A stretch of DNA of 64,000 nucleotides from a virus (taxonomy: Duplodnaviria; Caudoviricetes): IMG/VR virus record IMGVR_UViG_3300029288_000056, positions 96,001 through 160,000 of that record, one strand, 5' to 3'. The notes beneath the pieces were generated by a model, which was not told where the DNA came from, ran no database searches, and saw only the letters and a program-made list of their open reading frames with translations. Shown here piece by piece: positions 1 to 14,975 of the stretch. Every line of letters begins with the position of its first letter. The stretch's first letter is position 1. Position numbers and translations under genes: made by a program.

Positions 1-382
1 TTTGAGATAATGTGATGTTGTTTCCAGCTGCGAAGACTATTGCGCCAGTACTGCTGTTTAGAGACTGCACACCCGGTGCGACAGAGCCGGTCATTGTACT
101 TCCGCTTAATCCGAATGACAGGTTATTGGAGTTCGAAAAGACTACCGTTCCACTAAGGATCGTGGACGCACTATCTGCTATTCTCACCCCTGCACCCGTA
201 CCGACTATGGCATCTACGTAAGACTTGTTAGCAGCATCCATGTCACTAACGCATAGATCAACGTTGACGATCCGATGACTGTTAGCATTAATATAGGAGC
301 TTGACGAAGCGTCCGTGTTATATCTAACGACGGCGTCTCCGTCAAACAGATTGTGTAACGCTGATTGCTGCTTATCTAACAT
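1..382 (-). CDS. Tail fibre/adhesin-like protein, N-terminal part (runs off window edge)
   Basis: Not in ORF track. ATG at 382 with GGAG RBS; reads MLDKQQSALHNLFDGD...HRIVNVDLCVSDMDAANKSYVD...GTVVFSNSNNLSFGLSGST...VQSLNSSTGAIVFAAGNNITLSQ, open to position 1. DAANKxYVD neck motif and S/G/N/T-rich beta repeats are typical of fibres. Confidence 0.75.
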   Translation of the reverse strand, partial: MLDKQQSALHNLFDGDAVVRYNTDASSSSYINANSHRIVNVDLCVSDMDAANKSYVDAIVGTGAGVRIADSASTILSGTVVFSNSNNLSFGLSGSTMTGSVAPGVQSLNSSTGAIVFAAGNNITLSQ

Positions 383-1259
383 TAATCTCCGTTATCTGAT
401 AGATCTTGGAAGGATTGTAAATAAAGACCACACCGCCACCATCGTAGGCGTCGATACCTTCATCTATTATTCGTTTTGTATATTCTTGAGGCGACTCACC
501 GAAATGAGAGTCTCTTTGGTCGTATTCGCCGGCTACGTTACCTCTGAACTTCAGTTGAAGCACGGCGTATTTCTCGGTGTTAAATGGTTTTCCCGGGTTA
601 GTGAAATAATTGGTTGCGTTTTTAAGTGTGTGCATACAACTCACCGCGTAGTCGTTTACCCAACGCGGAGCTATCTTTGACAGCTGAAATCCGTTGGCCA
701 GTATCGACTCAACGTTTTCCCTTTTTGTAGTGTGATAAAGGGTCAGCGTTTTTGTTTCAATTTCCGCCGTTAGAAAGTTAAATTTGCTCGCCGCCATATC
801 ATCTAGACGAACGTTACCTTCTGGTCTATAAGGTTTGAGCAGGTCTTCAAGGTTAGCAGTTTCAGAAAGTGCCAACCAAGCCTCTGTAACGACATTCCAA
901 ACAACGCTTTGTATAGTATTAAAAGTGAGACCAGTCGCATCTTCCTTTTCTTTTATGTTATTTACTGTAACATCTACTAACTTGCCGGTATCGTTCCAAC
1001 TAAAAACTAACTGGGATGATTTTGTATTAAACCATTTTCTAATAAAGTCGGTCATAAAATTTTCCCCAGCCGTATTTAAAGCATATCCATTATAGTTACG
1101 CATTACACCGAAGAATAACGGGTCACCAATAAATGAAATAGCATGCATAACTTCAATACCTAAGACTAAATGGATAATTACATTTGTTGGTATATCATTC
1201 CAAGCACTCGCCCGATCACCAAAACTAGCGTTGGTTAAAAACTCTGTAAGTTTGTTCAT
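372..1259 (-). CDS. Tagged two-module protein with C-terminal ADP-ribosyltransferase-like (H-type) domain
   Basis: N-terminal MNKLTEFLTNA tag; internal AASKFNFLTA tag; then LYHTTKRENVESILANGF, resembling the LYHGT...I...GF strand-1 motif of PARP/DarT-like ARTs. Confidence 0.65.
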   Translation of the reverse strand: MNKLTEFLTNASFGDRASAWNDIPTNVIIHLVLGIEVMHAISFIGDPLFFGVMRNYNGYALNTAGENFMTDFIRKWFNTKSSQLVFSWNDTGKLVDVTVNNIKEKEDATGLTFNTIQSVVWNVVTEAWLALSETANLEDLLKPYRPEGNVRLDDMAASKFNFLTAEIETKTLTLYHTTKRENVESILANGFQLSKIAPRWVNDYAVSCMHTLKNATNYFTNPGKPFNTEKYAVLQLKFRGNVAGEYDQRDSHFGESPQEYTKRIIDEGIDAYDGGGVVFIYNPSKIYQITEINVR

Positions 1260-2038
1260 ATCTCCAATTGAGTCCCTTCCTTAACTTCTGTATTAGGAAT
1301 AAATTCAGCTGTGCCTTCGCCCTTATAAGGCTCTGTATGTTGAAAATCTTCCTCTGGTATAAGGTGGTTAATCGCATCCGGAGTTGACTCCCATTCGTCA
1401 GGGTTAAACTTCGCATTAGGATCAATGTTATCAGATTGTATGATCTCTCGAACTAGTTCCTCATCTCCGTCGGCCAAGTCCAATAGGCCTTCGTAGTTAG
1501 AGGCGGCGTCCAATGGGTGTTTAGACGCACTGATGCGTTCGTCTATATCTGATTGAATCTTTGGAACCATTTCATCCCACGCTTTTATACCGACGCCCGT
1601 TAGCTCGTTCTCGATCTGCTTGATGTCTCTAAGATATTCGTGGTACTGATCGTTCAGGCCGGCCTCTTCAATGAGCTTAACAAAGATAGGATCATCGGTG
1701 AATGAGACTCTAACCTTTTGAATATTAGACATTGCCGGGCTTAGGTGGAAGCCGAGGAGGGGAAAGCCGGCTTCGGCCAAGTAGGCTGTAATCGCTTTCA
1801 TAACTGCGTCTTCAAGTTTGTCGGTGTAGTGCAAGAATTCTCCCACACCCTCAGGATCCCAGTCTTCTTGGTCGTCAAAAAGAGGCTCTATATTGTAGGC
1901 CCGCGTAAAGTCGTCGGGTGTATCAATCCAAACCGAATTGATCCGCGCAGCATAGTTTCCGGACTCTAGAAACATCTCTAAGAAACTGAGTGCATCGTTG
2001 TTTATTGATGCGGTTAAAAATTCTGTAAGTTTACTCAT
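1256..2038 (-). CDS. Tagged acidic hypothetical protein
   Basis: MSKLTEFLTA tag, AAGGA RBS, coupled to the next gene. Confidence 0.8.
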   Translation of the reverse strand: MSKLTEFLTASINNDALSFLEMFLESGNYAARINSVWIDTPDDFTRAYNIEPLFDDQEDWDPEGVGEFLHYTDKLEDAVMKAITAYLAEAGFPLLGFHLSPAMSNIQKVRVSFTDDPIFVKLIEEAGLNDQYHEYLRDIKQIENELTGVGIKAWDEMVPKIQSDIDERISASKHPLDAASNYEGLLDLADGDEELVREIIQSDNIDPNAKFNPDEWESTPDAINHLIPEEDFQHTEPYKGEGTAEFIPNTEVKEGTQLEI

Positions 2039-2047
2039 GTTATCCTT

Positions 2048-2674
2048 TTAGGTATTAAAGATATATTCCGCTACCTGTTGAAATACTATATGGTAAGACT
2101 CGTTTAATAAAGCGAGCTCAAAATTACATTGTTTACTTATTCGCTCTATAAACTTTCGATTAGCTTCATAGGCCGAGCTAGTATCGATCTCGTCTGTTTT
2201 TGTTGTATAGCAATACCTCAATGAATCTTCCGGCCAGCTATGCCTATCACCAATTGGGTGAGCCTCTATGTTTGATGCAGGATTTAGACTGTCGTCATAG
2301 AAGCGATCCCATACTTCCCCCGCTTGAAAAGAGGTGTCCCCGTCAACGTCCGACGCTAAGCCGTATCCTTCTGACCCAGCCTCTTGCATTGCAATAATAT
2401 ACATAGGTGGCCCATATCCGTTTCCTCGTGTAAGAGCTAACTCAACTGTCTTAAACTCATCATAACTTTGTTCAACCACCAACATGGCGATTGACCTATA
2501 GTTAATAAAATCCGCCAAACTATCCACATCGTCGAATCTTTCGTCGGTAACTAATAAGTGTGGATCATAAAGGACATAACCTATATCATAATCATTAGGG
2601 CTAAAAGCTGCTAGTGCCAAGCCTTGTATGCTTTTATACGAAGCATCTAACAAAAACGACGTTAGTTTGTTCAT
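2048..2674 (-). CDS. Tagged GNAT-like repeat-family protein
   Basis: MNKLTSFLLDA tag; GYGPPMYIIAMQ...GLASD...TS..A..VWDRF family motif. Confidence 0.7.
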   Translation of the reverse strand: MNKLTSFLLDASYKSIQGLALAAFSPNDYDIGYVLYDPHLLVTDERFDDVDSLADFINYRSIAMLVVEQSYDEFKTVELALTRGNGYGPPMYIIAMQEAGSEGYGLASDVDGDTSFQAGEVWDRFYDDSLNPASNIEAHPIGDRHSWPEDSLRYCYTTKTDEIDTSSAYEANRKFIERISKQCNFELALLNESYHIVFQQVAEYIFNT

Positions 2675-3205
2675 TTATCTCCTATTATAAGTAACTTCGT
2701 ACTTGCCCGGATAGACAATACACTCTTTTTCTAATTCAATTGCATTAAGAATTTTATCTAATTCCGAATCCTCGTATAGTTGCTCTAAAAATTCTTGGTC
2801 GACATCTTCATCAATACTATCCATTAGATATTGAGAGAAGGCATACACATCGAGAGCGTCGGCTTTAGGATATTTTTGAGCGTCTAGCTCTAGCACGTTG
2901 TTCCCAAAGCCCAAACCTTCTATACCGTCTCCATCCTGAGTCCATGAGGTAAACTTAGCAGAACAATCATACAATGTCTTTTGACCGTTTTGCGTGGGGA
3001 TTGGAAAACAATAAGTCGTCAGTTCACCGTCGTCCACTGCTCTGTAGATGTTTGATTCTAAATCATAATGATATTTGCCGGCCCACTTCAACAGAAGATC
3101 GGTTGGCTTATCCTCACCACCTCTAACCCATGAACATAGGTCAACGAGAGCCTCTATAAATACGGAGGCTTTCTCCGCTAGTAAAAACGATGTTAGTTTG
3201 CTCAT
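2675..3205 (-). CDS. Tagged ADP-ribosyltransferase-like protein (R-S-E type)
   Basis: MSKLTSFLLA tag; IYRAV...FTSWT...ELEKECIV matches the R / S-x-[ST] / E-x-E arrangement. Confidence 0.65.
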   Translation of the reverse strand: MSKLTSFLLAEKASVFIEALVDLCSWVRGGEDKPTDLLLKWAGKYHYDLESNIYRAVDDGELTTYCFPIPTQNGQKTLYDCSAKFTSWTQDGDGIEGLGFGNNVLELDAQKYPKADALDVYAFSQYLMDSIDEDVDQEFLEQLYEDSELDKILNAIELEKECIVYPGKYEVTYNRR

Positions 3206-4137
3206 CCTTGATGATCCCTTAAGTAATCTTCTAATAATCTAGAAAGCTTAGGGTCTACGTACTTCTCGTAGTCCACGTGGTTCGGTGTAGTCATCATGTA
3301 GCCCCAATTCCCGCTGCCAACGTTGTATACGAAGTGTACATCTCTAACCTCTACACGCTTAACATAGGTGCCGCTGTCTGCGTACAACCTGTCCCAAACT
3401 GCTGTAGCGGCATCTCGTGTCGCCCCCCTATCGTCACTCGCAACCGGTAGTCCGTATTTGTTTGTAATATATTGGATTATCGCCAAATAAAGCCACGCTC
3501 CATAACCGTGCGGAGCAAAGGCGCTATTAACAAAGTAATAGCCGTCGGCCTTACAGCATTGAATATGGCCGATCTCGTTGTTTACGTTAAAGTCAGTAAT
3601 CTTCATGCTTTTAGGAAACAACGTCATTGTAACGTAGTACTCCGACTCTCCAAGTGCCATCACCATGCCGTCCGGCGGTGTGAGCGCGGCGCTCAGCGGC
3701 CCTAGTAAGAACTCGGTCAGTTTGGAGGCGGCAAATGCAAAGCCTCGCTCCGGTTGTTTGGGGACCAAAGAGAAGTCTTGCGCCATCCCGTCGTTTACAC
3801 TAATGACATCAAAATCGTCGCCTCGCGCCTCTACTAAGCCTTTCATGTCGTACAAGTACCACTTTGCGTTTTCACCCCAAATGATTGTTAGTTGATGGTG
3901 AAGGCGGCCCATTTGAATGGCTTCTTCCAAAAGCATGTCAGGTACGAAGTAGGAGCGTTCTTTCCATACCTTACCCGTATTGTCAGTCCACTGGCCCACC
4001 ATATCGATAAAACCCCAGCCGTTAACCTCAAGATCCTTTTCAAGATCTTTCCAGTTATCAGAAGCGATACAGCAGAACTTTTCACCTGAATTGAAGTGCT
4101 GTAGAATACGGCCTACGGATCCAGCGTTAAGCCTCAT
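3202..4137 (-). CDS. Tagged two-module protein: DUF3293-like domain + GNAT-like repeat
   Basis: MRLNA tag; ERSYFVP...AIQMGRLHHQLTIIW (DUF3293-like); internal AASKLTEFLL tag; GYGAWLY...VASD...TAVWDRL. Confidence 0.65.
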   Translation of the reverse strand: MRLNAGSVGRILQHFNSGEKFCCIASDNWKDLEKDLEVNGWGFIDMVGQWTDNTGKVWKERSYFVPDMLLEEAIQMGRLHHQLTIIWGENAKWYLYDMKGLVEARGDDFDVISVNDGMAQDFSLVPKQPERGFAFAASKLTEFLLGPLSAALTPPDGMVMALGESEYYVTMTLFPKSMKITDFNVNNEIGHIQCCKADGYYFVNSAFAPHGYGAWLYLAIIQYITNKYGLPVASDDRGATRDAATAVWDRLYADSGTYVKRVEVRDVHFVYNVGSGNWGYMMTTPNHVDYEKYVDPKLSRLLEDYLRDHQG

Positions 4138-5720
4138 ACTTCCTCCAATTTAATATCAAGTAAGCTAAATAATTCATCCCAACTATCGGTCGCGTTGGCC
4201 CGCGTGCCACCTAGTTCATGGAAGCGGTTTATCACAAGGTTCTTAAGGGCGGCGTTTTGATCATTCACGTTAACCGTTGCTACATAGCGGTTAGCAAATT
4301 CTCTAACGCTCAACTCCATAGTTTGCAAAAATCCTTTCAGCTGCTCACGGCCTTTCCGATAGCCGCCTAGCGGCTTTAGATCGAGGCCGAGGTTCTCGCA
4401 TATCTCAAACGCGACCGCGTCCGTTAAGAATTCCTCAATCTTGTTGTTCTCCGTTGCGTTCGGGTTTGAGCTCAGAACTCCGTGAACCATTTCGTGAAGG
4501 ATCTCTTGGGGTAGGCTGTTCTCCTTTACACCGATCTCTTGAGTCTCCTCGATGTAGTAACCTTTTACGCGGTTAGTAAGTGTTTCCTCACCGTTCTTTT
4601 TATTGATTGCGTCGCTCTTATCTAACCATTCTTGATAGTTCATCATATCTATACTGGATATCTTCGGCTTGATTCCGCCAAAGTAGTCGGCGATTGCGTT
4701 GATTAGATCCTGAATAGCGGGACAGTTCAAAGGAACAGGCCGCGCATTAAGCAGAAACTCTGTCAACTTGCTGGCCGATTTCCTTTCGGCTTTCCACTGA
4801 TTGTAGGTGTTCTTCGCATTCTCGATCTGATACTTAGTAAAGAACGGAGCCTTCATTGAGTAGGCGTACTTGAGCTGTATATCCACACCATAATCGGGAG
4901 CTGGTACCCAATCATTCCTTGATGAAATAGGAGTGTGTTCAATCCGCGGGTCGTTATAGAAGCGTTGCCAAAGATCTTGCGCGGCGCTTGATGTGTTTCC
5001 TTCACCTTCATCCGACGCTAAGTCTCCTAAGACCTGCATCGCGATAAGGTATGTAAGTGCGCCGTAGCCTCCTTCTGGTCCCCAACCGCCTTCAACAGAA
5101 TAGTAGCCTTCACGCGGGTAAGCCTCAACAACACCTACTCTAGTGTGTAAGTCTGTGTAGAGTTCAAAGATCGTATATCCGTCGGAGCCTTCGTAGATAC
5201 TTAGGCCGACCTCTTCAATCGAGGGCAGGGATGCGTTTAAGGTCGATCTACTCGCGGACACCCCATATTTCCATTCTTCATACTGGCTTTCCGCCATTTC
5301 AATTTCCTGTTCATCAAAAAACGGTGTTCTCATACTATAATAACATCTAAGCCATCGCGGTTGACTTGGATGCCAATCTTTCCTTTTCATTATAGGGGTA
5401 TGCTTAATTCGTGGATCGTCATAAAACTTCTTCCATAACGCTTCTGCACTGGGAGAAGTATTACCTTCCTGTCTATCAGATGCGATCCCTCCACGTAGTT
5501 GCATGGCGAGTAAGTAACAGAGTGCACCGTAACCGTGTTTTCCTTCACTAGTTTCAACAGTACCGTAATCGCCTTCCCCATATACTTCTACTATAGCTAT
5601 TTCTCTCATACTCTTCACGCCAAGCGCCGAATCATAAAGAGAGAAACGATAGTATTCTTGATCTGAATACCAGTCTAATCCTAAACCGTCTAATGATGCG
5701 AGGCTGGCGTTTAGTCTCAT
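4134..5720 (-). CDS. Tagged three-module protein: two GNAT-like repeats + HExxH metallopeptidase
   Basis: MRLNA, SASRSTLNA and SASKLTEFLLNA tags delimit the modules; LHEMVHG...EEFLTD zincin motif. Confidence 0.7.
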   Translation of the reverse strand: MRLNASLASLDGLGLDWYSDQEYYRFSLYDSALGVKSMREIAIVEVYGEGDYGTVETSEGKHGYGALCYLLAMQLRGGIASDRQEGNTSPSAEALWKKFYDDPRIKHTPIMKRKDWHPSQPRWLRCYYSMRTPFFDEQEIEMAESQYEEWKYGVSASRSTLNASLPSIEEVGLSIYEGSDGYTIFELYTDLHTRVGVVEAYPREGYYSVEGGWGPEGGYGALTYLIAMQVLGDLASDEGEGNTSSAAQDLWQRFYNDPRIEHTPISSRNDWVPAPDYGVDIQLKYAYSMKAPFFTKYQIENAKNTYNQWKAERKSASKLTEFLLNARPVPLNCPAIQDLINAIADYFGGIKPKISSIDMMNYQEWLDKSDAINKKNGEETLTNRVKGYYIEETQEIGVKENSLPQEILHEMVHGVLSSNPNATENNKIEEFLTDAVAFEICENLGLDLKPLGGYRKGREQLKGFLQTMELSVREFANRYVATVNVNDQNAALKNLVINRFHELGGTRANATDSWDELFSLLDIKLEEV

Positions 5721-6211
5721 CTTAACACTCTCTTTTTCATTCTGTCAATTGCATCATCTATATCTGATTGGGGAATAATAGGTTGTTTTAAACTATAAGC
5801 ATATTGTGTGGCTTCTATATAAGAATCATCATCGTTATAGTTGGCAGATTCCTCTAGCCAAGTTGGTATATCTCTGTCAGGTATCATGGTGTGTTCAATG
5901 CGAGGATCGTTATAGAACTTATTCCAAAGATCTTGTGCGGCTAAACTAGTTGTAGCATCGTTGTCTGACGCGATGGCCCCACAAATTTGCATTGCGATTA
6001 AATACAAGAGGGCGCCATAACCGTGTATACCTTCACTATTTTCAACAGTCCAATAGCCATCATGGTGTTTCAATCTCATGTCAGCAAAAGAATGAAGAGC
6101 TTCGTTGCGAAGGCTCATGTTTTTATGATCGTTACGATCATAAACATACAACAACAGTCCGTCCAACGAGGCCAATCCTGCATTAAGCAGAAATGAAGTT
6201 AGTCTATTCAA
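5717..6211 (-). CDS. Tagged GNAT-like repeat-family protein
   Basis: MNRLTSFLLNA tag; GYGALLYLIAMQ..IASD..TS..AQDLWNKF. Confidence 0.7.
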   Translation of the reverse strand: MNRLTSFLLNAGLASLDGLLLYVYDRNDHKNMSLRNEALHSFADMRLKHHDGYWTVENSEGIHGYGALLYLIAMQICGAIASDNDATTSLAAQDLWNKFYNDPRIEHTMIPDRDIPTWLEESANYNDDDSYIEATQYAYSLKQPIIPQSDIDDAIDRMKKRVLR

Positions 6212-7142
6212 AGCCCCACTCCTTTGCCCTTTGAACCGCGTCGGCGATTTGTTGTTCGGTGAAGACCGGAGACTTCAGTGTGTAATAGTATTTGTAAACA
6301 TCCGACGTACCATTCCGATCTATGGGCTTCTTGTGAATTCGCGGATCATTAATCATGTGCCTCCAAAGTTCAACAGCGTCACGTGATAAGACCCCACCGG
6401 GCGATAACCCACCAAGCATTTGCATCGCGATTAGGTAACAGAGCGCTCCGTAACCATGTTCACCCTCTGCCCTCTCAACTTCCCAATAGCCAAATTCGTC
6501 TGAAGCAATTATATAGGCGGTATCATGCAAACGGTCAACGTTCTTATTTTTGTAAATCTTAAACATCCCTCTATCCATCACCAAGGCAACCTCGTCGATA
6601 GACGCAATACCGGCACTTAAAAGGAAGTTAGTAAGCTTGCTCGCGGCTTTTGTCCAGCCGTTCTTCCAATTAATAAATGTACTCGTAGCTTCGTTGATTT
6701 GATCTATGGTGAAAAATGGTACTTTCATTTCGTATCTATATCTTAAATGTTCAACTTTCCAGCGCTTCCTCTCTGGTATAAGTATCTTATCGATACGCGG
6801 ATCGTCGTAGAAGCGCTTCCAAAGAGTAGATGCGTTATCGGAAGAGTCTCTATCTTTGTCTGACGCTATACTTCCAACGCACTGCATCGCGATCAGATAA
6901 CAGAGTGCCCCGTAACCGTGATCTCCATATCCACCTTCGACGGTCCAATATTCTTCACCCTCATTGTCTTCACCCTCGTTGTGTGCGCTCACACTCGCTC
7001 TATTCATTGATCTCATAGCCTCTTCTTTTGATGTAAACAACATAAATATCCTAGAGTATATACTGCCCGGATCAGCATATAGCCCCACGTCTTCGATTGA
7101 GGCTATACCAGCATTGAGTAGGAATGTCGTTAAATTATTCAC
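6204..7142 (-). CDS. Tagged protein with two GNAT-like repeats
   Basis: Start moved to GTG at 7142 (GGAG RBS, gives MNNLTTFLLNA tag); internal AASKLTNFLLSA tag; two GYGALCYLIAMQ motifs. Confidence 0.7.
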   Translation of the reverse strand: MNNLTTFLLNAGIASIEDVGLYADPGSIYSRIFMLFTSKEEAMRSMNRASVSAHNEGEDNEGEEYWTVEGGYGDHGYGALCYLIAMQCVGSIASDKDRDSSDNASTLWKRFYDDPRIDKILIPERKRWKVEHLRYRYEMKVPFFTIDQINEATSTFINWKNGWTKAASKLTNFLLSAGIASIDEVALVMDRGMFKIYKNKNVDRLHDTAYIIASDEFGYWEVERAEGEHGYGALCYLIAMQMLGGLSPGGVLSRDAVELWRHMINDPRIHKKPIDRNGTSDVYKYYYTLKSPVFTEQQIADAVQRAKEWGFE

Positions 7143-7629: not shown

Positions 7630-7637
7630 GTACCCTC

Positions 7638-8072: not shown

Positions 8073-8090
8073 AATATTCCTCCTTTTGTG

Positions 8091-8891
8091 TTAAATTCCT
8101 GTGCGCCAAAGACTGTCGTCAGCGTTCCAAGGAGATCCGTAAGGGTCCTCTATGTAGTCGTCATCGTCAAAAACTCTAATAGTTGTATCAACCGGTTTCG
8201 TCGGATCACCTGTCGGTAGATCGGATATCCTACCGCGGGCAAAACTACCCATCGGTCTTACAAACTCATCAGCCGTCCCATTCTGTCGCGCTTCATATAA
8301 GACTTGCGCGCTCTTTATTTCGTCTAACGGAATGAGTGGATGAAGCGCAGTTAGTTTATAGAGCATAGGATCGTCTTTGGCTAGCTCAAGTCTTTGAGCA
8401 TCCTTAGCTCTTTCTTGAATAAGTTCCCGTTTAACTTCGGGGCTTTTGAACATTCTCAAGAATGCGTTCTTTGCAGGAAAAGCGAGTGCGTTGTCGCTGA
8501 TGTCCATTGCTATTCCACCCTTATTCTGATAGAGCGTCAGTGCGACCCTAATTACGATGTCCACGTTTCCCGTGGCCCAGCCGATAATGAAGTGGTCCCC
8601 TTCTCGCGCTACTGCGATACCATCCTCTATTCTGCCTGAGCCGGCAGTTAGTAAGATGTACTCACCGATTCCAAAGTCTTTAAAGTGTAGGGCGAGTTCA
8701 CCCCAAGTACCGAGCCCCTCACCTTTTGTTACTGGTGTTGACGGAGGTAGAGCTAGTGCGCCTGTTGGTTGTATCTTATAATCAGGAAACTTTGCGGCCG
8801 TTAGAAACTCGGTCAGTAGGGACGGCTTTACTTCGCTGTACAACTCCGCCGGTATGACGGATTTCCTTGCTACGTATTCTAAACTTCTCAT
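8091..8891 (-). CDS. Tagged protein with degenerate GNAT-like repeat
   Basis: SLLTEFLTAA tag near N-terminus; GGIAMD...AKNAFLRMFKSPEV aligns loosely with the family. Confidence 0.6.
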   Translation of the reverse strand: MRSLEYVARKSVIPAELYSEVKPSLLTEFLTAAKFPDYKIQPTGALALPPSTPVTKGEGLGTWGELALHFKDFGIGEYILLTAGSGRIEDGIAVAREGDHFIIGWATGNVDIVIRVALTLYQNKGGIAMDISDNALAFPAKNAFLRMFKSPEVKRELIQERAKDAQRLELAKDDPMLYKLTALHPLIPLDEIKSAQVLYEARQNGTADEFVRPMGSFARGRISDLPTGDPTKPVDTTIRVFDDDDYIEDPYGSPWNADDSLWRTGI

Positions 8892-8899
8892 AATACTCC

Positions 8900-9562
8900 T
8901 TAATGATAAAAAAAGTTCCGCGTTGCTGAACCAAATTTAACTATTATTTCACTCTCGGTATACCACTGTTTCAAGTAGTCAACGACCTGTTGGTGTAAGG
9001 CCTTCTCTGCCGAAACGTCTATTTCTGGTCTTTTGACCTTATACGCAACACTCAACCAAGGGCCTCCATCAATATAGCCGTCCCCGCCGCATCGTTCGCA
9101 ATCTTCTTCGTCTCCGTCACAATCAGGACAAACCGTTTGTGGTGCGTCATATCTTTCTTCTCTTATTATATTTGAGTTAGGGTCTTGGCTATCTATAAGG
9201 AATCTGCGCCAAACTTCTGATGCTTCATCTGATGTTCTACCTGTTATATCAGAGGCTAACCCCTTCCCTCTCGCGGTACAATCTTGCATTGCCACAATAT
9301 AAAGGGTAGGTCCGTAACCTTGCTCAGCATAAGAGTATTCTATTGTATCCTCTTGTCTGTCCTCTTGATTGTCTGAATAAACAATAAGCATCGCTATCCC
9401 ATTGTTCTGAAGGATAGGCTCAAGATTTGCATGAGCCTTAAAAGCAGAATCGTAAGTGCCCGCCAAAATTGTGTCGGGATCGTACACAAAATAGAAGAAC
9501 TCCTCTCCACCGTGGTAGGTGAATAGGGCGAGTCCTGTTATATCGCGTCGGCCTGCTTGCAT
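8900..9562 (-). CDS. GNAT-like repeat-family protein with inserted zinc finger
   Basis: MQA short tag; GYGPTLYIVAMQ...GLASD; CPDCDG...CERCGGDG insertion. Confidence 0.7.
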   Translation of the reverse strand: MQAGRRDITGLALFTYHGGEEFFYFVYDPDTILAGTYDSAFKAHANLEPILQNNGIAMLIVYSDNQEDRQEDTIEYSYAEQGYGPTLYIVAMQDCTARGKGLASDITGRTSDEASEVWRRFLIDSQDPNSNIIREERYDAPQTVCPDCDGDEEDCERCGGDGYIDGGPWLSVAYKVKRPEIDVSAEKALHQQVVDYLKQWYTESEIIVKFGSATRNFFYH

Positions 9563-10168
9563 TTATCCGCCAGTTGAAAAGAATTGGTTCATTGCGTCTA
9601 ATAAAGCGCCTCTTATTTCGTCTTCGTCAAACCATTTCTTCAAATGAACGAAGACTTGTTCATTAAGAGTAGCTTCTGCGTCGACCTCAATGGTTGGGGT
9701 CTTGATCTTGTAATAGTGGTACTGCGGCTGTTCACTGTAAGGGTCTATAGTACCCCTACCGTCACAGTTGTCTCGATCAAAAGCCGTTATATTAGAGGTT
9801 GGGTCTTCACTGTCTTCAAGAAAACGGTACCAAACTCTCATAGCTTCACCTGAGGTCTGTCCTCTCTCGTCTGAGGCTAGGCCCTTACCCCTCGCCGTCG
9901 AGTCTTGCATTGCGAGGATATACATGGTCGGTCCGTAACCTTCTTTTGAGCGCGACAGCTTTATGGAATCGTAATTTCCACGATCAGTTGTGATTAGCAT
10001 ACCGATTCCGGCATGCATAAATGTGTTGCGCAAATCATTCCTAGAAAGACCGTAGAAGTTCTCACCAAAAAGGGAGGCGGATTCATAAGCATAATAGTAA
10101 TAGTAACCGCCCGTTGCGTAGTAGAAGTAGGCGAAACCCTTTATCTCTTGGCGTACCGCGTTTAACAT
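9563..10168 (-). CDS. GNAT-like repeat-family protein
   Basis: MLNA short tag; GYGPTMYILAMQ...GLASD..TS..A..VWYRF. Confidence 0.7.
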   Translation of the reverse strand: MLNAVRQEIKGFAYFYYATGGYYYYYAYESASLFGENFYGLSRNDLRNTFMHAGIGMLITTDRGNYDSIKLSRSKEGYGPTMYILAMQDSTARGKGLASDERGQTSGEAMRVWYRFLEDSEDPTSNITAFDRDNCDGRGTIDPYSEQPQYHYYKIKTPTIEVDAEATLNEQVFVHLKKWFDEDEIRGALLDAMNQFFSTGG

Positions 10169-10713
10169 TAATAGAATCTCTCCGTCACATCATTAAACGT
10201 ATCTGTTATCTCTTCAAGTGTAAACTGTTGACGTAGAAATTCCACTACTTTATTGTTATTTTTAATCTCAGTAGATACATCAACAATTTGTCTAGACACC
10301 ATAAATGCAGCCGATGCCGATGGGGCTTTAATTATACCAGAACCAGCCTTTTGACTATCTCTTTCAAAATGATCCCAAACTGATTGAGCTTCTTCCGACG
10401 TTTCTCCGTCGTCATCAGAGGTAAGCCCAACCCCTCGTTTAGTGGCTTCTTGCATAGCAACGATATATAGAGTGGGCCCATAACCCTCTACCTCAGATCT
10501 TGCCCACTCTACAGACTCGTAGCCACCATGATCTTCTACACCTAACATTGCGCATCCAACTTCACTAAGTGCATCATAAAGGGTAGATGTGTCACCAATA
10601 TCCTCAAGATTTAAATTTAATATTGGGTCTGGGTCGTATATATAATACCAAAAGTCATAGGTTTCTCCTATAAAAAGAGCCATACCCCTTATACTTCTTC
10701 TAGCTGCTTGCAT
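10168..10713 (-). CDS. GNAT-like repeat-family protein
   Basis: MQA short tag; GYGPTLYIVAMQ...GLTSD..TS..AQSVWDHF. Confidence 0.7.
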   Translation of the reverse strand: MQAARRSIRGMALFIGETYDFWYYIYDPDPILNLNLEDIGDTSTLYDALSEVGCAMLGVEDHGGYESVEWARSEVEGYGPTLYIVAMQEATKRGVGLTSDDDGETSEEAQSVWDHFERDSQKAGSGIIKAPSASAAFMVSRQIVDVSTEIKNNNKVVEFLRQQFTLEEITDTFNDVTERFY

Positions 10714-10714
10714 A

Positions 10715-11332
10715 TTACTCCTTTAAAAAATTACTCAAAGATGCTACCCTTCTTGGGCCACTGTAACTACGGCTAAACATTATATCCGCGAGAGACCACA
10801 AGAGATCCTCGTAGTTTAAGCTGGTACGTATAATGTAAGGCCCGTCTGTACCGTGGCAATTGGATATGTCGGTATTACCTTTCGCAGTCTGGTGGTTTGC
10901 GTAAGCTTGCGCGGTGTCAACCAGTTGGCGGTCGGTTTTAAACACGTAGTTAGCGCTCACAAAGACATTCTCTCTTCTTATATCCCTTTCCTTTGTGATA
11001 CCAGAATTAGGGTCGTTTGAGATTTCGTAGAACTTGTCCCAAACCCTCACCGCGGAAGGTGACGGTTGGCCGTCAGATTCGATACCCTCTGGGCTTTCTT
11101 GCATTGCAATCATATACATCGTAGGTCCATAGCCTTCAGCGGCGACAGGACCGTGGATATTGTTGTCTTCCACTTCAATCTTCCCAAAAACCGGCCGTTT
11201 GATGTGAGACCTGAAGTCTCGCGCGTTGATGATGTCTTGGATGATTGTGTGATCGTACAATACATACAAAGATCCTGACGAAAAGAACGGTCGCTTACAC
11301 AGGGCGAGATTAGATATATTGGTTTGTAACAT
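10715..11332 (-). CDS. GNAT-like repeat-family protein with C-terminal tag
   Basis: GYGPTMYMIAMQ..GIESD..SPSAVRVWDKF; ends in VASLSNFLKE. Confidence 0.7.
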   Translation of the reverse strand: MLQTNISNLALCKRPFFSSGSLYVLYDHTIIQDIINARDFRSHIKRPVFGKIEVEDNNIHGPVAAEGYGPTMYMIAMQESPEGIESDGQPSPSAVRVWDKFYEISNDPNSGITKERDIRRENVFVSANYVFKTDRQLVDTAQAYANHQTAKGNTDISNCHGTDGPYIIRTSLNYEDLLWSLADIMFSRSYSGPRRVASLSNFLKE

Positions 11333-11975
11333 TTCTCCACCATTTTACAAATTCGTCTCTTGATTGCCAATGGTTCGGTCGGTTAACCAACCCAACCCCA
11401 TCGGGTATATCCTCTAGTCTATCCATCAACCCTTTGTCGGCAAAGTGAACCGATTTGCCGCGGCCAACTGATAAAGAGAGATACAAATCGTCGTTGAAGA
11501 TCGCTTCACTGCGATACATCGGATTCTGTGCAATGAGACCAAGACTGACCTTGGCGAGCAGGTCCTTAGAAAGCATTACAAAGCGACCTTTGATTATCGG
11601 CACAAAACCCCACGCATCTAGTGCGGTGGAGTAAGGTTTGTCTCCAATAGAAAGGTTGCGGCCAAAGGCGCCAGTAAGAACGTCAGGGTGTCGTTGGTGC
11701 ACTTCAAACGCGTCCTTAAGAAAGTCGTCGTCCTTAGGTAAGAGGTCGTCATCCATAAATACGATAGTCTGGTACTTGGAGAAGGGCGCTAAAACGATTC
11801 GCGCTAGACAACCCATATTCCAAGTTGAGTAGACGGTCTGATCTCCTTCAACCAAGTCGTCCTGTCGGTTATTGATGACTATTATCTCATTCTCTATAGT
11901 TTGCTGTCGCAGTTTGTCAATCAGTTTGCGCAACTGTGCGGGCCGACTATAGTTGAGAAGTATTATCGATATCAT
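11310..11975 (-). CDS. GT-A fold glycosyltransferase (GT2/GT64-like)
   Basis: ISIILLNYSR, EIIVINN, FMDDD (DxD) and NDDLYLS motifs. Confidence 0.85.
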   Translation of the reverse strand: MISIILLNYSRPAQLRKLIDKLRQQTIENEIIVINNRQDDLVEGDQTVYSTWNMGCLARIVLAPFSKYQTIVFMDDDLLPKDDDFLKDAFEVHQRHPDVLTGAFGRNLSIGDKPYSTALDAWGFVPIIKGRFVMLSKDLLAKVSLGLIAQNPMYRSEAIFNDDLYLSLSVGRGKSVHFADKGLMDRLEDIPDGVGLVNRPNHWQSRDEFVKWWRNVTNQYI

Positions 11976-14937
11976 TTAATAAGAACCTCGTTAGTTTACT
12001 TGCTGCAATTGTCTCAGGAAGACCGTACTTCGTTCTAAAGTCTCGACAGGATCGTATTGCACTGTCAGATTGCATTTGTCCCATAAGCTCTAGAATCTTA
12101 GGAGTGCCGGCGAGGCGGATAACCTCAGGAATCTTCAGTTGATCTTCTTTTGTAGAATTAGGCTGTAAAGCCCACTTAGCGAATTGGTAGAATGTAAACC
12201 GGTTATAAACTATCAGCTTTGCCAAGGTCTGTGCGTTTAAATGGGAATAGATTATATATACTTTAGTGTCACCCATTGAACTTACACCGCCCGTATTCCA
12301 AATTCTGTCTGCGATATAGGGGGCGCTCCAATCTCGTACTGTCCAGATTTGCGGATTCATTTCTCCCGCTCTGATCCAGTCGTCTATACTAAGCGACTCC
12401 CACGGCAATGAGACTAGAGTCTCAGGATTGTTCAGGGCGATCTCTCGGGCAATTCGCTGACCGGTACTACCAATGTCTGTGCCCGGTGGTATATCCTTCA
12501 TGTACTCTTCCGCAATCGGCAAGAACAACGCTCTCGCGTCCGAATTGTACTCGAGAATGTAGAAGAATTGGTACCAACGATCGGGTTTCTCCATCAACTT
12601 CGGTTTAACTCGCGCAAAGAACAGATTCCAGTCTATACCAAAGGCCTTAAGGATGTTAACCCAACTAGAACTCTCCAACCTATCCATCACGTCATTATAT
12701 ATTCGTTCATCTACCGTGCCTATCATCCCGATATGAGTGATGACGAACAGATCTTTTATATCCATGGACAATTGTGCCCAATTTGCGGTCGAAAGTACAG
12801 TCTTCAACTTAGTCACCCTTGCGTCATCTGGGGCTATAGGGCCACTGGTGTTAACGAGTATATTAAGTATTGTAGAAGGACTGAAGGTGTCTGCAATTCT
12901 CGGATTCAATGCCGTTACTCGTGCTAACCAGCTTGGGTCAAGCGCGCCTTCTGGAATAGTAACGCCCGCCAACATAAGGTTGGCATAACTTGCGCCCGAA
13001 CGGCCCGCCATCATATATAGGATGTCTTGCGGAACCGTCTTGAGTATGTCGATCGTGGTTTGGGGTAACGTAGCGAAAGTCTCGGGTATAACCATTGTGA
13101 ATAGTATCTTAATCCAATTAGGGTACTGAGTAATGACGTCTTTAACGTCCTGACCATCGTACTCTACCTCGGTTCGTCTGTCACCCCTCGACACACTCCT
13201 AAATGCGTCCGCGTAGTTAGCGAGGACGGGGTGAGTCTTCATAAGTGTGAGGTACTTCTTAAGCAAGTAGTACTTGGCGGGTGTAACCGTCTTACCCTCG
13301 AGCTTCGGAATAAGGTACTGACCCAACTTACGACCGCTGACTACGAGGGTGAAGATTTGATCACCGGTCAACTCAACGCCCTGTTGAGTTAATGAGGCCA
13401 TGAAGGTCGTAAACTGTGTCTTATTCTTAATCGCATTGTCGGCTGCGTATAGGAAGTCGTCCATTGTACCAGCCTGTTGAATACTGCTCATTACGCGATC
13501 CATCATTTGATACTTAAGGGCTATGCTTAAGACGTAAGAGGAAGGTATCCTTCCGTTAGAAACCAAGTAGTCGAAGAGCTCTTTGGCTAAGTCGGCAATA
13601 TCGGGTAAGGAGAACAGTTGGTCAAAGGTTCGGTTCCAATCGCTGATTCGGTTACGACCAATGGTTTCAAAGGCCGCGTTCTTATCTAAGAGGTTGGCCT
13701 GTACTAGGTATAAGATGTCCTTAGGCTCACTGACCAATATACCCAAGTAGTTGCGTAGCTCGCTATTCATACCTATCAATCTTGTTATACGATCAACCGT
13801 CATATTACTAATGATGAATGGGTATCCTGAGTTCTGAGCAAAGTCGATCATTGAAGGTTTACGTGCTAATAACGTATCTACTAGATCATCCTTACGATTT
13901 TGAATAGCCCATCTTACCAAATCTCTCTGTGCCCTCTCCTGCATTGAGTCAAAATAATTGATATCCATTCCTACAAGTAACCCTAGATCGTCTTTTGATA
14001 GGTTGTTATAATCGATTTGATCCTTAAAATAAGGATTCCCGCTAGTTAATTGCTGCACCATATAAGTCTGTGGAATCGTATAGTTTCCTACACCTTTTCG
14101 GTTAAGAATCTCCCATAGGAAGGCGCCGCGCTCTGGGGTAGAATATAAGAAAGAACCAATCGGTGTAGACGGATTCATATTGTCTATGCACAAGGGCATC
14201 CATTTCCTCATATCCGCGGTGATTAGTTCGTTCCACATACCCGGTCCTAACAGCTTTATGATCTCAGGGGTTGGTTCAATACTTCCATCTATTAGACCGG
14301 CGAGAGTCGCAGGGTCGATGTATGTAACGGTGTAACTCGTATTCCCCAAGGTCCAATGCGCTCTACGTTCAACATTACTATAGGCACGACTGAAGAGAGC
14401 CCCAGCCGCGTCCTTAAGTTTGTCGTTGGTTATATCGGGGTGTTCCGCTTGAAGGCTTTGCCCAAGAGCGAGGGCGGCGTCCATCGGTTCAATGATGGTA
14501 GTAATGTAGTAGACGTAGTCTTTAGGGTTGTCAGCCTGCATTGTGTCGTCGGTAACGCGTTGAGTCGCTTTAACGGGGGATCCGGGCTGCCGAGAGTCCA
14601 AGAGGAATCTCGCATAGACCGGTTCAGCGTCACCGGAGGTTGAACCAGAAGCATCTGATGCAATCCCCTTCCCGTCTTGCCACGCCCTTTGAGCACCACA
14701 GACATAGGCCGTTGGCCCGATTTCGAGCCGTTTGTTTCCGGCCGAGTTCTGCACTGTATAGTAGTCGCCGCGTTCGTTGTACGACAACCGTACGTACCCG
14801 ACTGCATCTATACCGAAACGCTCCTCAGCGTTGTACCTCCATATAATAACGTAGATACTTCCAGCTAGACTCTGTCCAATGAACGACAGGGCAAATTCGT
14901 TACCTAGCGATCTTCTCGCTGCACTTAAACGATTCAT
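11947..14937 (-). CDS. Large tagged protein: N-terminal GNAT-like repeat + long helical region
   Basis: MNRLSA tag; IGPTAY...GIASD..TSGDAEPVYARF; C-terminal AASKLTRFLLN tag; GGAGG RBS. Confidence 0.75.
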   Translation of the reverse strand: MNRLSAARRSLGNEFALSFIGQSLAGSIYVIIWRYNAEERFGIDAVGYVRLSYNERGDYYTVQNSAGNKRLEIGPTAYVCGAQRAWQDGKGIASDASGSTSGDAEPVYARFLLDSRQPGSPVKATQRVTDDTMQADNPKDYVYYITTIIEPMDAALALGQSLQAEHPDITNDKLKDAAGALFSRAYSNVERRAHWTLGNTSYTVTYIDPATLAGLIDGSIEPTPEIIKLLGPGMWNELITADMRKWMPLCIDNMNPSTPIGSFLYSTPERGAFLWEILNRKGVGNYTIPQTYMVQQLTSGNPYFKDQIDYNNLSKDDLGLLVGMDINYFDSMQERAQRDLVRWAIQNRKDDLVDTLLARKPSMIDFAQNSGYPFIISNMTVDRITRLIGMNSELRNYLGILVSEPKDILYLVQANLLDKNAAFETIGRNRISDWNRTFDQLFSLPDIADLAKELFDYLVSNGRIPSSYVLSIALKYQMMDRVMSSIQQAGTMDDFLYAADNAIKNKTQFTTFMASLTQQGVELTGDQIFTLVVSGRKLGQYLIPKLEGKTVTPAKYYLLKKYLTLMKTHPVLANYADAFRSVSRGDRRTEVEYDGQDVKDVITQYPNWIKILFTMVIPETFATLPQTTIDILKTVPQDILYMMAGRSGASYANLMLAGVTIPEGALDPSWLARVTALNPRIADTFSPSTILNILVNTSGPIAPDDARVTKLKTVLSTANWAQLSMDIKDLFVITHIGMIGTVDERIYNDVMDRLESSSWVNILKAFGIDWNLFFARVKPKLMEKPDRWYQFFYILEYNSDARALFLPIAEEYMKDIPPGTDIGSTGQRIAREIALNNPETLVSLPWESLSIDDWIRAGEMNPQIWTVRDWSAPYIADRIWNTGGVSSMGDTKVYIIYSHLNAQTLAKLIVYNRFTFYQFAKWALQPNSTKEDQLKIPEVIRLAGTPKILELMGQMQSDSAIRSCRDFRTKYGLPETIAASKLTRFLLNDIDNTSQL

Positions 14938-14948: not shown

Positions 14949-14975
14949 AAAAAAAAGAACGGTTATTTACCGTTC
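14949..14975 (-). terminator. Intrinsic terminator separating the early region from the virion-cargo operon
   Basis: Minus strand GAACGGT-AAATA-ACCGTTC followed by T8. Confidence 0.8.

What the first reader, a model, noticed from the sequence alone, without database searches (positions are those of the whole stretch)
372..14937. Peptide-tagged effector array: a candidate capsid-targeting code shared by 16 of 17 consecutive genes
Seen: otherwise unrelated proteins start with the same short peptide. Full forms: MNKLTEFLTNA (1259), MSKLTEFLTA (2038), MNKLTSFLLDA (2674), MSKLTSFLLA (3205), MNRLTSFLLNA (6211), MNNLTTFLLNA (7142), MSVLTEFLLNA (7629), MRLTDFLNA (8072), SLLTEFLTA (near the 8891 N-terminus). 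Truncated forms: MRLNA (4137, 5720), MLNA (10168), MQA (9562, 10713), MNRLSA (14937). The 10715 gene has only a C-terminal copy. Conservation is at protein level, with synonymous codons varying, and the tag almost always ends in hydrophobic-x-Ala followed by a small residue. The operon continues into a tail-fibre-like gene. Established: T4 internal proteins carry a ~10-aa capsid-targeting leader (MKTYQEFIAE in IPIII) that the prohead protease removes after Glu, and they are injected with the DNA. Inference: this is an analogous but Ala-specific packaging/cleavage code that loads an enzyme cocktail (GNAT-like, ART-like, zincin) into the head for delivery at infection. It could also serve as a cargo-loading tag.
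Basis: partly seen in the sequence, partly recalled or inferred. Interest (0 to 1): 0.92.

Follow-up and report, generated by a model that had tools for sequence, protein, structure and literature searches.

The report
Shared address tag on jumbo-phage enzymes
An uncultured 297-kb phage puts the same ten-residue helix (S-K-L-T-x-F-L-L-x-A) at the start, middle or end of about 45 mix-and-match enzyme genes next to its virion genes. It is most likely a local version of the tag phage T4 uses to load proteins into its head, but packaging and cutting are untested.

Summary
The shared peptide is real and far beyond chance: about 48 copies against 0.4 in shuffles. It is conserved as protein, not as DNA. 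The finding covers only the upstream 15 kb of an 80-kb array (genome 32-111 kb).

- 12-13 of the 17 window genes carry a full tag. Three carry only a 3-5 residue remnant.
- Most window proteins are paralogues sharing a GNAT-like domain (F0), not unrelated proteins.
- The tag also sits between domains and at C-termini, nearly always once per protein.

Across the array it joins at least 21 downstream and 11 upstream domain families in combinatorial architectures.

F0 has about 1,450 relatives elsewhere. Most start with a T4-like leader ending L-x-E-A, and 4 of 5 such phage records encode a T4-type head protease. This phage has a Mu-type portal and no such protease, and its tag is flanked by Ala, not Glu. 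The array lies in the early-promoter-poor block next to the virion genes.

Best reading (about 0.5): a position-independent head-loading tag. Ala-site trimming by a still-unproven protease is a weaker add-on. Packaging, cleavage and ejection are inferred.

The scan has reported similar tag arrays in other jumbo phages. This is a new variant of a known kind.

The parts
14957..14975 (-). Terminator-like hairpin with a T-run just upstream of the first tagged gene; an extended -10-like TGATATAAT lies beside it. Marks the upstream edge of the array.
11947..14937 (-). 996-aa first gene of the array: N-terminal F0 (GNAT-like) domain, about 780 aa of unknown function, and a C-terminal tag.
11971..12000 (-). 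C-terminal tag copy (AA-SKLTRFLLND, then 7 residues and the stop). Upstream Ala present, no downstream Ala.
11310..11975 (-). Untagged family-2 glycosyltransferase gene embedded in the array.
10715..11332 (-). F0 paralogue with a degenerate C-terminal tag (VA-SLSNFLKE-stop at 10718-10741). The next gene starts MQA, so the gene boundary falls inside a former tag.
8900..10713 (-). Three F0 paralogues (10168-10713, 9563-10168, 8900-9562) that start with tag remnants only (MQA, MLNA, MQA).
8091..8891 (-). 266-aa protein of unknown family with the tag at residues 24-33 (8793-8822).
7638..8072 (-). 144-aa protein: N-terminal tag (8043-8072) plus a weak DnaJ-type CxxCxGxG zinc ribbon at the C-terminus.
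7135..7629 (-). 164-aa tag-F0 protein (tag 7597-7626). In the AlphaFold model the first 5-8 residues are disordered and the rest is a confident GNAT-like domain.
6204..7175 (-). tag-F0-tag-F0 protein (tags 7110-7139 and 6612-6641). The true start is probably the GTG at residue 13.
5717..6211 (-). 164-aa tag-F0 protein (tag 6179-6208, TTG start).
4134..5720 (-). 528-aa F0-F0-tag-F2 protein. Starts with the remnant MRLNA; internal tag 4743-4772 (SA-SKLTEFLLNA); C-terminal zincin-like domain with HExxH.
3202..4137 (-). 311-aa protein: remnant MRLNA, a DUF3293-like domain (just under the Pfam cut-off), internal tag 3697-3726, then F0.
2675..3205 (-). 176-aa protein: N-terminal tag (3173-3202) plus an unknown domain.
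2048..2674 (-). 208-aa tag-F0 protein (tag 2642-2671).
1256..2038 (-). 260-aa protein: N-terminal tag (2006-2035) plus an unknown acidic domain.
372..1259 (-). 295-aa protein: N-terminal tag (1227-1256) plus a C-terminal region with a weak PARP/ART-like hit (E=0.085).
2..382 (-). Start of an untagged 1093-aa fibre- or decoration-like protein. The array continues beyond it down to genome 32 kb.

Best explanation
The peptide [A]-S-K-L-T-x-F-L-L-(x)-A is a self-contained, position-independent address tag. It is a short amphipathic helix (Leu, Phe, Leu, Leu on one face) on a flexible tether, carried once per polypeptide by about 45 late-block proteins.

It most likely docks them onto an internal component of the assembling prohead (scaffold or core, or the shell interior). 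A large, rapidly reshuffled set of enzymes would thus be enclosed in the head and leave it with the DNA. These enzymes are GNAT-like, zincin-like, ART-like, NUDIX and many of unknown type. This is the job of the T4 capsid-targeting sequence.

A secondary and weaker claim (about 0.3) is that the Ala residues flanking the tag are trimming sites. Candidate sites are x-A|S-K-L-T upstream and L-x-A|G/S downstream. The cutter would be the phage's own prohead protease, with the 215-aa gene beside the portal as candidate. Its P1-Ala specificity would resemble that of herpesvirus assemblin rather than the P1-Glu of T4 gp21. Trimming would free the domains of the two-domain precursors.

Shown: the motif, its numbers, protein-level selection, one tag per protein at any position, modular architectures, disordered tether plus helix, kinship of the cargo family with leader-bearing proteins of T4-like phages, and location in the early-promoter-poor block.

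Inferred: docking partner, encapsidation, cleavage and ejection.
For: 1. Enrichment and confinement: 48 copies against 0.4 expected, almost all at genome 32-111 kb.
2. Protein-level selection: all synonymous codons are used at invariant positions.
3. The tag precedes 21 and follows 11 BLAST-distinct domain families. The same payload occurs as tag-F2, F1-tag-F2, F7-tag-F2 and F0F0-tag-F2, and likewise for F0, F3 and F4.
4. C-terminal copies sit on single-domain proteins. In two F1 paralogues whose domains are only about 40% identical, 8 of 10 tag residues are kept. The tag therefore works on its own and is not a linker.
5. Structure models: on F0 the first 5-8 tag residues are disordered. In F1-tag-F2 a disordered stretch (residues 161-176, pLDDT under 50 at 172-176) leads into a helix at 175-187 that holds the tag.
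6. The F0 profile finds 1,457 relatives. Of 99 short foreign ones, 65 start with a helical leader ending [LIV]-x-E-[AKM]-A, for example MKSLKEFVLLNEAA and MRFKEFITEMAM, which resemble the T4 CTS. The F0 profile matches that foreign family with hhalign probability 99.7%.
7. Other phage records show whole arrays with such leaders. Four of five encode Peptidase_S77. This genome has none and its tag lacks the Glu.
8. Ala grammar: upstream Ala in 15 of 22 internal or C-terminal tags (p=5e-10). Downstream Ala in 29 of 37 N-terminal or internal tags but 0 of 5 C-terminal ones (p=0.0015).
9. Forty-one of 44 strong sigma-70-like promoters lie at 111-297 kb and only 3 at 1-111 kb (p=6e-6). The array runs co-directionally into terminase, Mu-type portal and the tail genes.
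10. A 215-aa gene in the canonical protease position resembles prohead proteases by language-model features and by Atlas structure (TM 0.60 to DUF2213; S78, S80/S77 and Mu-like_Pro among the rows).
11. Precedents: the T4 10-aa CTS loads foreign proteins into the scaffolding core and is removed by gp21 (PMC10229621, PMC3012670). The P1 DarB N-terminal 30 residues target a reporter to the capsid (PMC9024508). Herpesvirus assemblin cuts YLQA-T and VQA-S and removes the scaffold's capsid-binding tail (PMC4498786).
Against: - No experiment and no cultured relative exists.
- The candidate capsid, scaffold and portal proteins carry no tag. Their [LIVMF]-x-A-[SG] sites (for example FTA|S at capsid residue 53-57 and ILSA|S near the protease candidate's C-terminus) are no more frequent than chance.
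- The protease candidate rests on Atlas similarity only. No Pfam or PHROG model hits it, and hhalign finds no likeness to S77.
- The capsid protein itself is assigned only by position and a strong terminator.
- On F0 the L-N-A end of the tag is already part of the confidently folded domain, so a cut after that Ala would fall in ordered structure.
- The Ala rule is equally explained if Ala belongs to the payload module.
- Remnant-only genes (MLNA, MQA) show the full tag is dispensable for some paralogues.
- One sigma-70-like promoter lies inside the array (81.9 kb), and one good tag lies in the early region at genome 243.6-244.0 kb.
- Five untagged glycosyltransferases and a fibre-like gene sit within the array.
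Confidence: 0.5

Rival explanations
1. The tag is a docking peptide for something other than the capsid interior, and it is not cleaved. It could plug interchangeable enzyme heads onto a tail, baseplate, fibre or head-surface adaptor. Alternatively it could gather the proteins into a cytoplasmic complex or onto a host target after infection.
For: - The tag is position-independent and occurs once per protein.
- It is a short helix on a tether.
- A fibre- or decoration-like 1093-aa gene and five glycosyltransferases lie inside the array.
- No tag occurs in the head proteins.
Against: - The payloads look like intracellular enzymes (GNAT-like, zincin, NUDIX, ART-like), not binders.
- The homologous F0 cargo in other phages carries T4-CTS-like leaders together with a gp21-type protease.
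- About 45 different proteins would need one external docking site.
Confidence: 0.2
2. The peptide has no addressing role. It is a junction or linker segment inherited within a fast-duplicating, recombining multi-domain gene family, and it is kept because it caps or spaces domains.
For: - Eleven of the 17 window proteins are F0 paralogues. The L-N-A end of the tag is the conserved start of the F0 fold.
- Gene boundaries fall inside tags, which shows fission and fusion.
- Remnant-only genes exist.
Against: - Codons are randomised while residues are invariant, so selection acts on the peptide.
- The tag sits at the extreme N-terminus of single-domain proteins and at the C-terminus of single-domain proteins, where there is nothing to link.
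- It is attached to at least 21 plus 11 BLAST-distinct families.
- It is better conserved than the adjoining F1 domain.
Confidence: 0.12
3. The tag is a recognition leader for another machine. Candidates are a modifying enzyme (for example the glycosyltransferases encoded in the array), a chaperone, or a host export or degradation system.
For: - Five glycosyltransferase genes (GT2, GT9, DUF5672) are embedded in the array and are untagged themselves.
- Short leader helices are how many modifying enzymes recognise their substrates (general knowledge).
Against: - The tag has no signal-peptide-like hydrophobic stretch, no lipobox and no twin-arginine motif (sequence).
- No known leader-dependent enzyme family was found next to the tags.
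- The T4-like leaders on homologous cargo point to head assembly.
Confidence: 0.08

Closest known systems
Phage T4 capsid-targeting sequence (10-aa N-terminal CTS of IPI, IPII, IPIII; Alt also processed) with prohead protease gp21 (PMC10229621, PMC3012670; CTS sequence MKTYQEFIAE from my own knowledge)
   Same: A ten-residue helical peptide is shared by otherwise diverse, fast-evolving proteins. The hydrophobic-x-x-F-hydrophobic core is alike (YQEFI against LTxFL). Cargo includes ART-type enzymes. The homologous F0 cargo in S77-encoding phages carries T4-like leaders.
   Different: There is no Glu cleavage site and no S77 protease. The portal is Mu-type, not gp20-type. The tag also works from internal and C-terminal positions. 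About 45 tagged genes, against a handful in T4. Packaging is untested.
Herpesvirus assemblin maturation (M) and release (R) sites, hydrophobic-x-A|S/T (PMC4498786)
   Same: Ala at P1 with Ser, Thr or Gly after it (here x-A|SKLT and L-N-A|G/S). The cut removes a short peptide that tethers a protein to the capsid interior. Phage prohead proteases share the assemblin fold (general knowledge).
   Different: Cleavage here is purely inferred. The protease is unidentified at sequence level. The herpesvirus sites are in scaffold proteins, not in cargo enzymes.
Phage P1 DarB N-terminal capsid-targeting signal (PMC9024508)
   Same: A non-T4 example in which an N-terminal segment suffices to load a large enzyme, or a reporter, into the head for delivery.
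   Different: The P1 signal is about 30 residues on one protein, not a ten-residue motif multiplied over dozens of genes. There is no sequence likeness.
Head ejection proteins and propeptides of phiKZ-like giant phages such as SPN3US (PMC10052503)
   Same: Tens of head-internal proteins, including paralogue families, are loaded and processed by a prohead protease.
   Different: In SPN3US the propeptides are long (20-254 residues) and dissimilar, and the cut follows Glu. No short shared tag is described.
Encapsulin cargo-loading peptides (own knowledge)
   Same: A short terminal peptide, N- or C-terminal, on a flexible linker docks diverse enzymes to the inside of an HK97-fold shell.
   Different: Encapsulins have no DNA, no portal, no protease step and one or a few cargo genes. 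No binding to the capsid protein candidate could be shown here.

Membership tests
T4-type capsid-targeting sequence / internal-protein system | Short conserved peptide shared by otherwise diverse proteins | tested here: met
   48 copies against 0.4 expected; at least 21 downstream families
T4-type capsid-targeting sequence / internal-protein system | Peptide is N-terminal and ends in an L/I-x-E site for the prohead protease | tested here: not met
   Tags end in L-x-A or L-A. Glu occurs only at the variable position. 22 of 42 strong copies are internal or C-terminal
T4-type capsid-targeting sequence / internal-protein system | Phage encodes a gp21-type prohead protease (Pfam Peptidase_S77) | tested here: not met
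   No PF03420 match at E<=1 in the 297-kb record. The 215-aa candidate shows no likeness to S77. Four of five foreign records with Glu-type leaders do have S77
T4-type capsid-targeting sequence / internal-protein system | Tagged proteins are enclosed in the head and ejected with the DNA | not testable with these tools
   Uncultured phage; no proteome available
T4-type capsid-targeting sequence / internal-protein system | Genes expressed with the virion (late) genes | tested here: inconclusive
   The array lies in the block with 3 of 44 sigma-70-like promoters and runs into the head module. No expression data
Assemblin-type hydrophobic-x-A|S maturation sites | Ala at P1 with a small residue at P1' at the boundaries to be cut | tested here: inconclusive
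   The Ala flanks are significant and position-dependent, but the pattern alone does not show cleavage
Assemblin-type hydrophobic-x-A|S maturation sites | Assemblin/HK97-fold serine protease in the head module | tested here: inconclusive
   Atlas features and structure point to prohead proteases for the 215-aa protein. No HMM or PDB sequence match
Encapsulin-type cargo-loading peptide | Peptide binds the inner face of the HK97-fold shell protein | not testable with these tools
   The capsid protein is assigned by position only. The complex job gave no verdict (see Tried and rejected)
MuF-type polymorphic head toxins | N-terminal Phage_Mu_F domain (PF04233) carrying a variable C-terminal toxin, gene next to the portal | tested here: not met
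   No PF04233 in the Pfam scans of the 17 window proteins, the portal or 5 further array proteins. Other array proteins were not scanned. One weak Atlas structural row only
GNAT acetyltransferase superfamily (for domain F0) | GNAT fold | tested here: inconclusive
   Nearly all of the top 50 VIA rows are GNAT or GNAT-fold proteins, Z 6.2-7.8 over 95-126 residues. Foldseek probability 0.95-0.99 but TM about 0.4. No Pfam hit
Zincin metallopeptidases (for domain F2) | HExxH plus a downstream Glu on a zincin fold | tested here: inconclusive
   HExxH is kept in 7 of 7 copies and the downstream E-G in 6 of 7. Weak fold matches to collagenase, M1, M78 and MA_2 peptidases

The most novel reading that the evidence does not exclude
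A non-T4, Mu-portal jumbo phage runs a second 'dialect' of capsid loading. A ten-residue helix works from the N-terminus, the C-terminus or between domains, and it is excised at flanking Ala sites by an assemblin-like protease with herpesvirus-type (x-A|S) specificity. The tag's terminal residue co-evolves with the protease family: Glu with S77, Ala here. About 45 enzymes, plus a second tag class (MKYFKN) on at least 16 more, would make the largest encoded packaged arsenal yet described, and a portable cargo-loading tag.
Probability: 0.25. Interest if true: 0.8.

Novelty: new variant of a known kind. Interest (0 to 1): 0.62.

Why it matters
If the tag loads proteins into the head, three things follow.

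- T4-style cargo addressing would not be a peculiarity of T4-like phages. It would be a general, evolvable code of large phages whose cut-site residue tracks the protease type.
- About 45 unknown proteins would be marked as candidates for delivery into the cell at the first moment of infection. Anti-defence and host-takeover functions are expected there.
- A ten-residue tag that works at either end of a protein would be a handy tool for loading cargo into phage or phage-like particles.

The combinatorial carrier-tag-payload architectures also give a clean natural example of domain shuffling around a short functional motif.

Tried and rejected
- **No close DNA or protein relatives among GenBank phages.** Tested with the array, the 164-aa tag-F0 protein, terminase, and two foreign F0 relatives.
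- **Word-based protein searches returned only the query's own cluster.** This held for the 164-aa F0 protein and for the 215-aa protein.
- **IMG/VR scans.** Terminase and the F1 carrier alignment found no relatives. The full F0 alignment was too diverse to scan with.
- **DNA pattern for S/N-K-L-T-E-F-L-L-x-A in IMG/VR.** It gave 3 hits, all chance matches in short non-coding frames. No second phage with this dialect was found.
- **Prp idea rejected.** I tested whether the tag mimics the ribosomal L27 / Staphylococcus phage 80alpha leader cut by the host Prp protease (recalled from memory). The phage has no PF04327, and the host is unknown.
- **Head-gene HMMs all negative in the genome:** S77, Phage_capsid, Mu-like_gpT and DUF2213.
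- **PDB sequence searches found nothing.** Queries were the protease candidate, capsid candidate, F0 and F1.
- **hhalign of the 215-aa protein against four S77 proteases:** no likeness.
- **F1 carrier domain:** no fold match.
- **Complex prediction.** A 38-residue C-terminal tag tail was tested against the capsid, scaffold and protease candidates. The result was 'no answer' (score 0.13, mark 0.34), which is not evidence either way.
- **Recombination-signal idea rejected.** DNA-level conservation of the tag is ruled out by the codon spread.

Full report
**Where the window lies.** The window is bases 96,001-160,000 of a 297,328-bp IMG/VR phage record estimated 94% complete. Almost all genes are on the minus strand. 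The finding (window 372-14937) is the upstream end of a much longer array that runs from genome 111 kb down to about 32 kb. Below it come small genes, then the large terminase (24.5-25.9 kb), a Mu-type portal (Pfam Portal_Mu, E=4e-41, with a ~540-aa C-terminal extension) and an HNH endonuclease. Next are a 215-aa protein, proteins of 143, 153 and 341 aa (the last with coiled-coil signals), a 140-aa protein and a 349-aa protein followed by a strong terminator. Tail-like large proteins follow, down to 2 kb. A terminator-like hairpin at window 14957-14975 marks the array's upstream edge.

**Corrections to the observation.**
- Twelve of the 17 window genes carry a tag of at least 11 bits. The degenerate C-terminal copy VA-SLSNFLKE makes 13.
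- MRLNA, MLNA and MQA are remnants of the tag's last residues. They occur on F0, on the zincin-like F2 domain (genome 62,315-62,869) and on a DUF3293-like domain, so they are truncated tags rather than an F0 peculiarity. They lack the K-L-T-x-F core.
- The window proteins are mostly paralogues. A search with one of them finds 19 copies of its domain in the genome, and clustering groups 21 segments as family F0.
- The tag is not only N-terminal. Among the 42 strongest copies, 20 are N-terminal, 17 internal and 5 C-terminal.

**Anatomy of the array.** I cut all array proteins at the tags and clustered the pieces. The families are:

| Family | Copies | Character |
|---|---|---|
| F0 | 21 | GYG..Y..AMQ..ASD..TS..A..W.RFY |
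| F1 | 8 | ~175-aa N-terminal 'carrier' |
| F2 | 7 | HExxH...EG |
| F3 | 5 | YHGT motif |
| F4 | 4 | LYRG...SWT...EYI, an R-S-E ART-like pattern |
| F7 | 2 | |
| singletons | many | |

- The architectures are combinatorial: tag-F0, F1-tag-F0, DUF3293-like-tag-F0, tag-F0-tag-F0; tag-F2, F1-tag-F2, F7-tag-F2, F0-F0-tag-F2; tag-F3, F1-tag-F3, NUDIX-tag-F3; tag-F4, F1-tag-F4; and F1-tag-stop, F4-tag-stop.
- In all, 21 families follow a tag and 11 precede one. Of 111 array genes, 45 are tagged. Nearly every tagged protein has exactly one tag.
- C-terminal tags sit on single-domain proteins. In the two F1-tag-stop paralogues, 8 of 10 tag residues are kept while the F1 domains are about 40% identical.
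- This argues that the peptide is functional on its own and is not a mere linker.

**Ala flanks.**
- Internal and C-terminal tags are preceded by Ala in 15 of 22 cases (background Ala 5.8%; p=5e-10).
- A downstream Ala (L-x-A or L-A) is present in 29 of 37 N-terminal or internal tags and in 0 of 5 C-terminal ones (Fisher p=0.0015).
- Ala thus flanks the tag on each side where a domain adjoins. This tested and confirmed an earlier first-reader note from this scan.
- It fits excision at Ala. It fits equally if Ala belongs to the payload module.

**Structure.**
- An AlphaFold model of the 164-aa tag-F0 protein (mean pLDDT 89) leaves residues 1-5 below pLDDT 50. The confident domain starts around residues 8-9.
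- The fold matches are nearly all GNAT or GNAT-fold proteins (VIA Z 6.2-7.8 over 95-126 residues; Foldseek probability up to 0.99, TM about 0.4), so 'GNAT-like' holds at fold level only.
- A model of an F1-tag-F2 protein (pLDDT 81) shows two confident domains. They are joined by a low-confidence stretch (residues 161-176) that runs into a helix (175-187) holding the tag.
- F2 resembles zincin peptidases weakly (collagenase, M1, M78, MA_2). F1 matches nothing.
- Pfam adds a significant NUDIX domain (E=3e-10) in one carrier position and a weak PARP-like hit in the 372-1259 protein.

**Relatives give the main clue.**
- No close relative exists among cultured phages. No other IMG/VR contig has this tag dialect.
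- A profile of F0 nevertheless finds 1,457 proteins (168 at E<=1e-10).
- Of 99 short foreign members, 65 begin with a helical leader ending [LIV]-x-E-[AKM]-A. Examples are MKSLKEFVLLNEAA, MRFKEFITEMAM, MKLLKEYIQLILQEKAV and MKVLRSFIRVALNEAA.
- These look like the T4 capsid-targeting sequence with its gp21 cut site. The T4 sequence MKTYQEFIAE is from my own knowledge. The function of the 10-aa CTS and its removal by gp21 are documented in PMC10229621 and PMC3012670.
- hhalign matches the F0 profile to that foreign family with 99.7% probability.
- Foreign contigs show the same phenomenon as here. One carries three tandem F0 genes plus unrelated genes sharing an M-x-K-L-L-K-E-Y-I leader, and one C-terminal copy preceded by Glu. 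A 273-kb record has about 17 consecutive genes starting MKNLRQYIRKILLTE.
- Four of five such records encode Peptidase_S77; the fifth is a 25% fragment.
- This genome has no S77 match, and its tag has the same hydrophobic core but Ala where the others have Glu.
- With only one Ala-type genome, this co-variation is suggestive, not proven.

**Timing.**
- A very regular sigma-70-like promoter (CTTGACTTTT, a ~10-base spacer, an extended -10) occurs 44 times on the coding strand. Forty-one copies are at 111-297 kb, where the replication and metabolic genes lie. Three are at 1-111 kb (p=6e-6).
- The tag array and the virion module together form the promoter-poor block.
- The blemishes are one such promoter at 81.9 kb inside the array, and one good tag on a 137-aa gene at genome 243.6-244.0 kb.

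**A protease?**
- The 215-aa gene beside the portal is in the canonical position. In the ESM Atlas it resembles prohead proteases by features (S80/S77, S78, DUF2213, YonD_N clusters, scores 0.92-0.95) and by structure (TM 0.60 to DUF2213; about 0.5 to S78 and Mu-like_Pro).
- No HMM, PDB sequence or S77 profile supports this, so it stays a lead.
- Herpesvirus assemblin shares its fold with phage prohead proteases (general knowledge). It cuts after Ala (YLQA-T, VQA-S) and thereby removes the scaffold tail that binds the capsid protein (PMC4498786). A P1-Ala head protease is therefore precedented.
[quoted passage not shown] At about one expected site per 300 residues they carry no statistical weight.

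**Verdict.**
- The peptide is a genuine short functional motif, under protein-level selection, on a large shuffled set of enzyme-like proteins in the late-type block of a jumbo phage.
- The best-supported mechanism is head loading by docking of the helix, as for the T4 CTS (confidence about 0.5). Trimming at the Ala flanks is a weaker add-on (about 0.3).
- The rivals are docking elsewhere on the virion or in the cell (0.2), an inherited junction segment without addressing function (0.12), and a leader for another machine such as the embedded glycosyltransferases (0.08).
- It fails two defining features of the T4 system, the Glu site and the S77 protease. I therefore file it as working like a CTS, not as a member of that system. 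It is a new variant of a known kind.
- The scan has already described comparable tag arrays in other jumbo phages, T4-like and phiRSL1-like. New here are the non-T4 head module, the Ala flanks, the position independence with one tag per protein, and the link through a shared cargo family to Glu-type leaders in S77 phages.

Noticed in passing
L010/L011 (genome 33,000-57,000; outside the window): A second N-terminal tag, M-K-Y-F-K-N-(A), starts at least 16 genes in the block next to the SKLT array and occurs internally in a few more. Two proteins carry both tags. First readers had noted it already.
   Followed up: partly
window 24,900-64,000 and on to genome 296 kb (first copies at window 24909, 27675, 29929): A very regular sigma-70-like promoter (CTTGACTTTT, ~10-base spacer, TGnTAnnAT) occurs 41 times at genome 111-297 kb (first copy at 120.9 kb) and only 3 times at 1-111 kb. 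This splits the genome into an early-type half and a late-type half.
   Followed up: partly
window 11310-11975; L012:2593-7572 (genome 56.6-61.6 kb): Five untagged glycosyltransferase genes (GT2, two GT9 heptosyltransferase-like, two GT2+DUF5672) are embedded in the tagged array. They could glycosylate virion or cargo proteins, or host envelope sugars.
   Followed up: no
L032 (IMGVR_UViG_3300020442_000005, 273 kb), locus 4,000-15,400: About 17 consecutive genes start MK(N/H/Y)LR(Q/N)YIR(K/Q)ILLTE. The record encodes a T4-type prohead protease (L036). It is a Glu-type counterpart of the array studied here.
   Followed up: partly
L016 (Logan contig ERR14949522_323821), 3225-13490: Three tandem F0 genes and several unrelated genes share an M-x-K-L-L-K-E-Y-I..L-x-E leader. 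One 366-aa protein ends with a C-terminal copy (DSEA-SLKEFVKLALKGN-stop).
   Followed up: partly
genome 243,600-244,013 (outside the window): One isolated gene in the early-type region carries a good tag (M-GKLNEFLNAA, 19 bits), near the Ro60/Y-RNA locus described by earlier notes.
   Followed up: no
L010:3572-6472 and L010:2932-3603 (genome 20.9-24.5 kb): The Mu-type portal has an unexplained ~540-aa C-terminal extension. An HNH endonuclease gene sits between it and the protease candidate.
   Followed up: no
L009:18184-19209 and L010:1219-1680 (genome 18.2-19.7 kb): The 341-aa and 153-aa head-module proteins share a segment (FGAENIIP...W.E(V/I)A), as if they were two scaffold paralogues.
   Followed up: no
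L013:3739-4728 (genome 75,739-76,728): One protein has a NUDIX domain, then the tag, then the YHGT (ART-like) domain. A foreign F0 relative (P0091) also joins NUDIX to F0, so the pairing of these enzyme types recurs.
   Followed up: no
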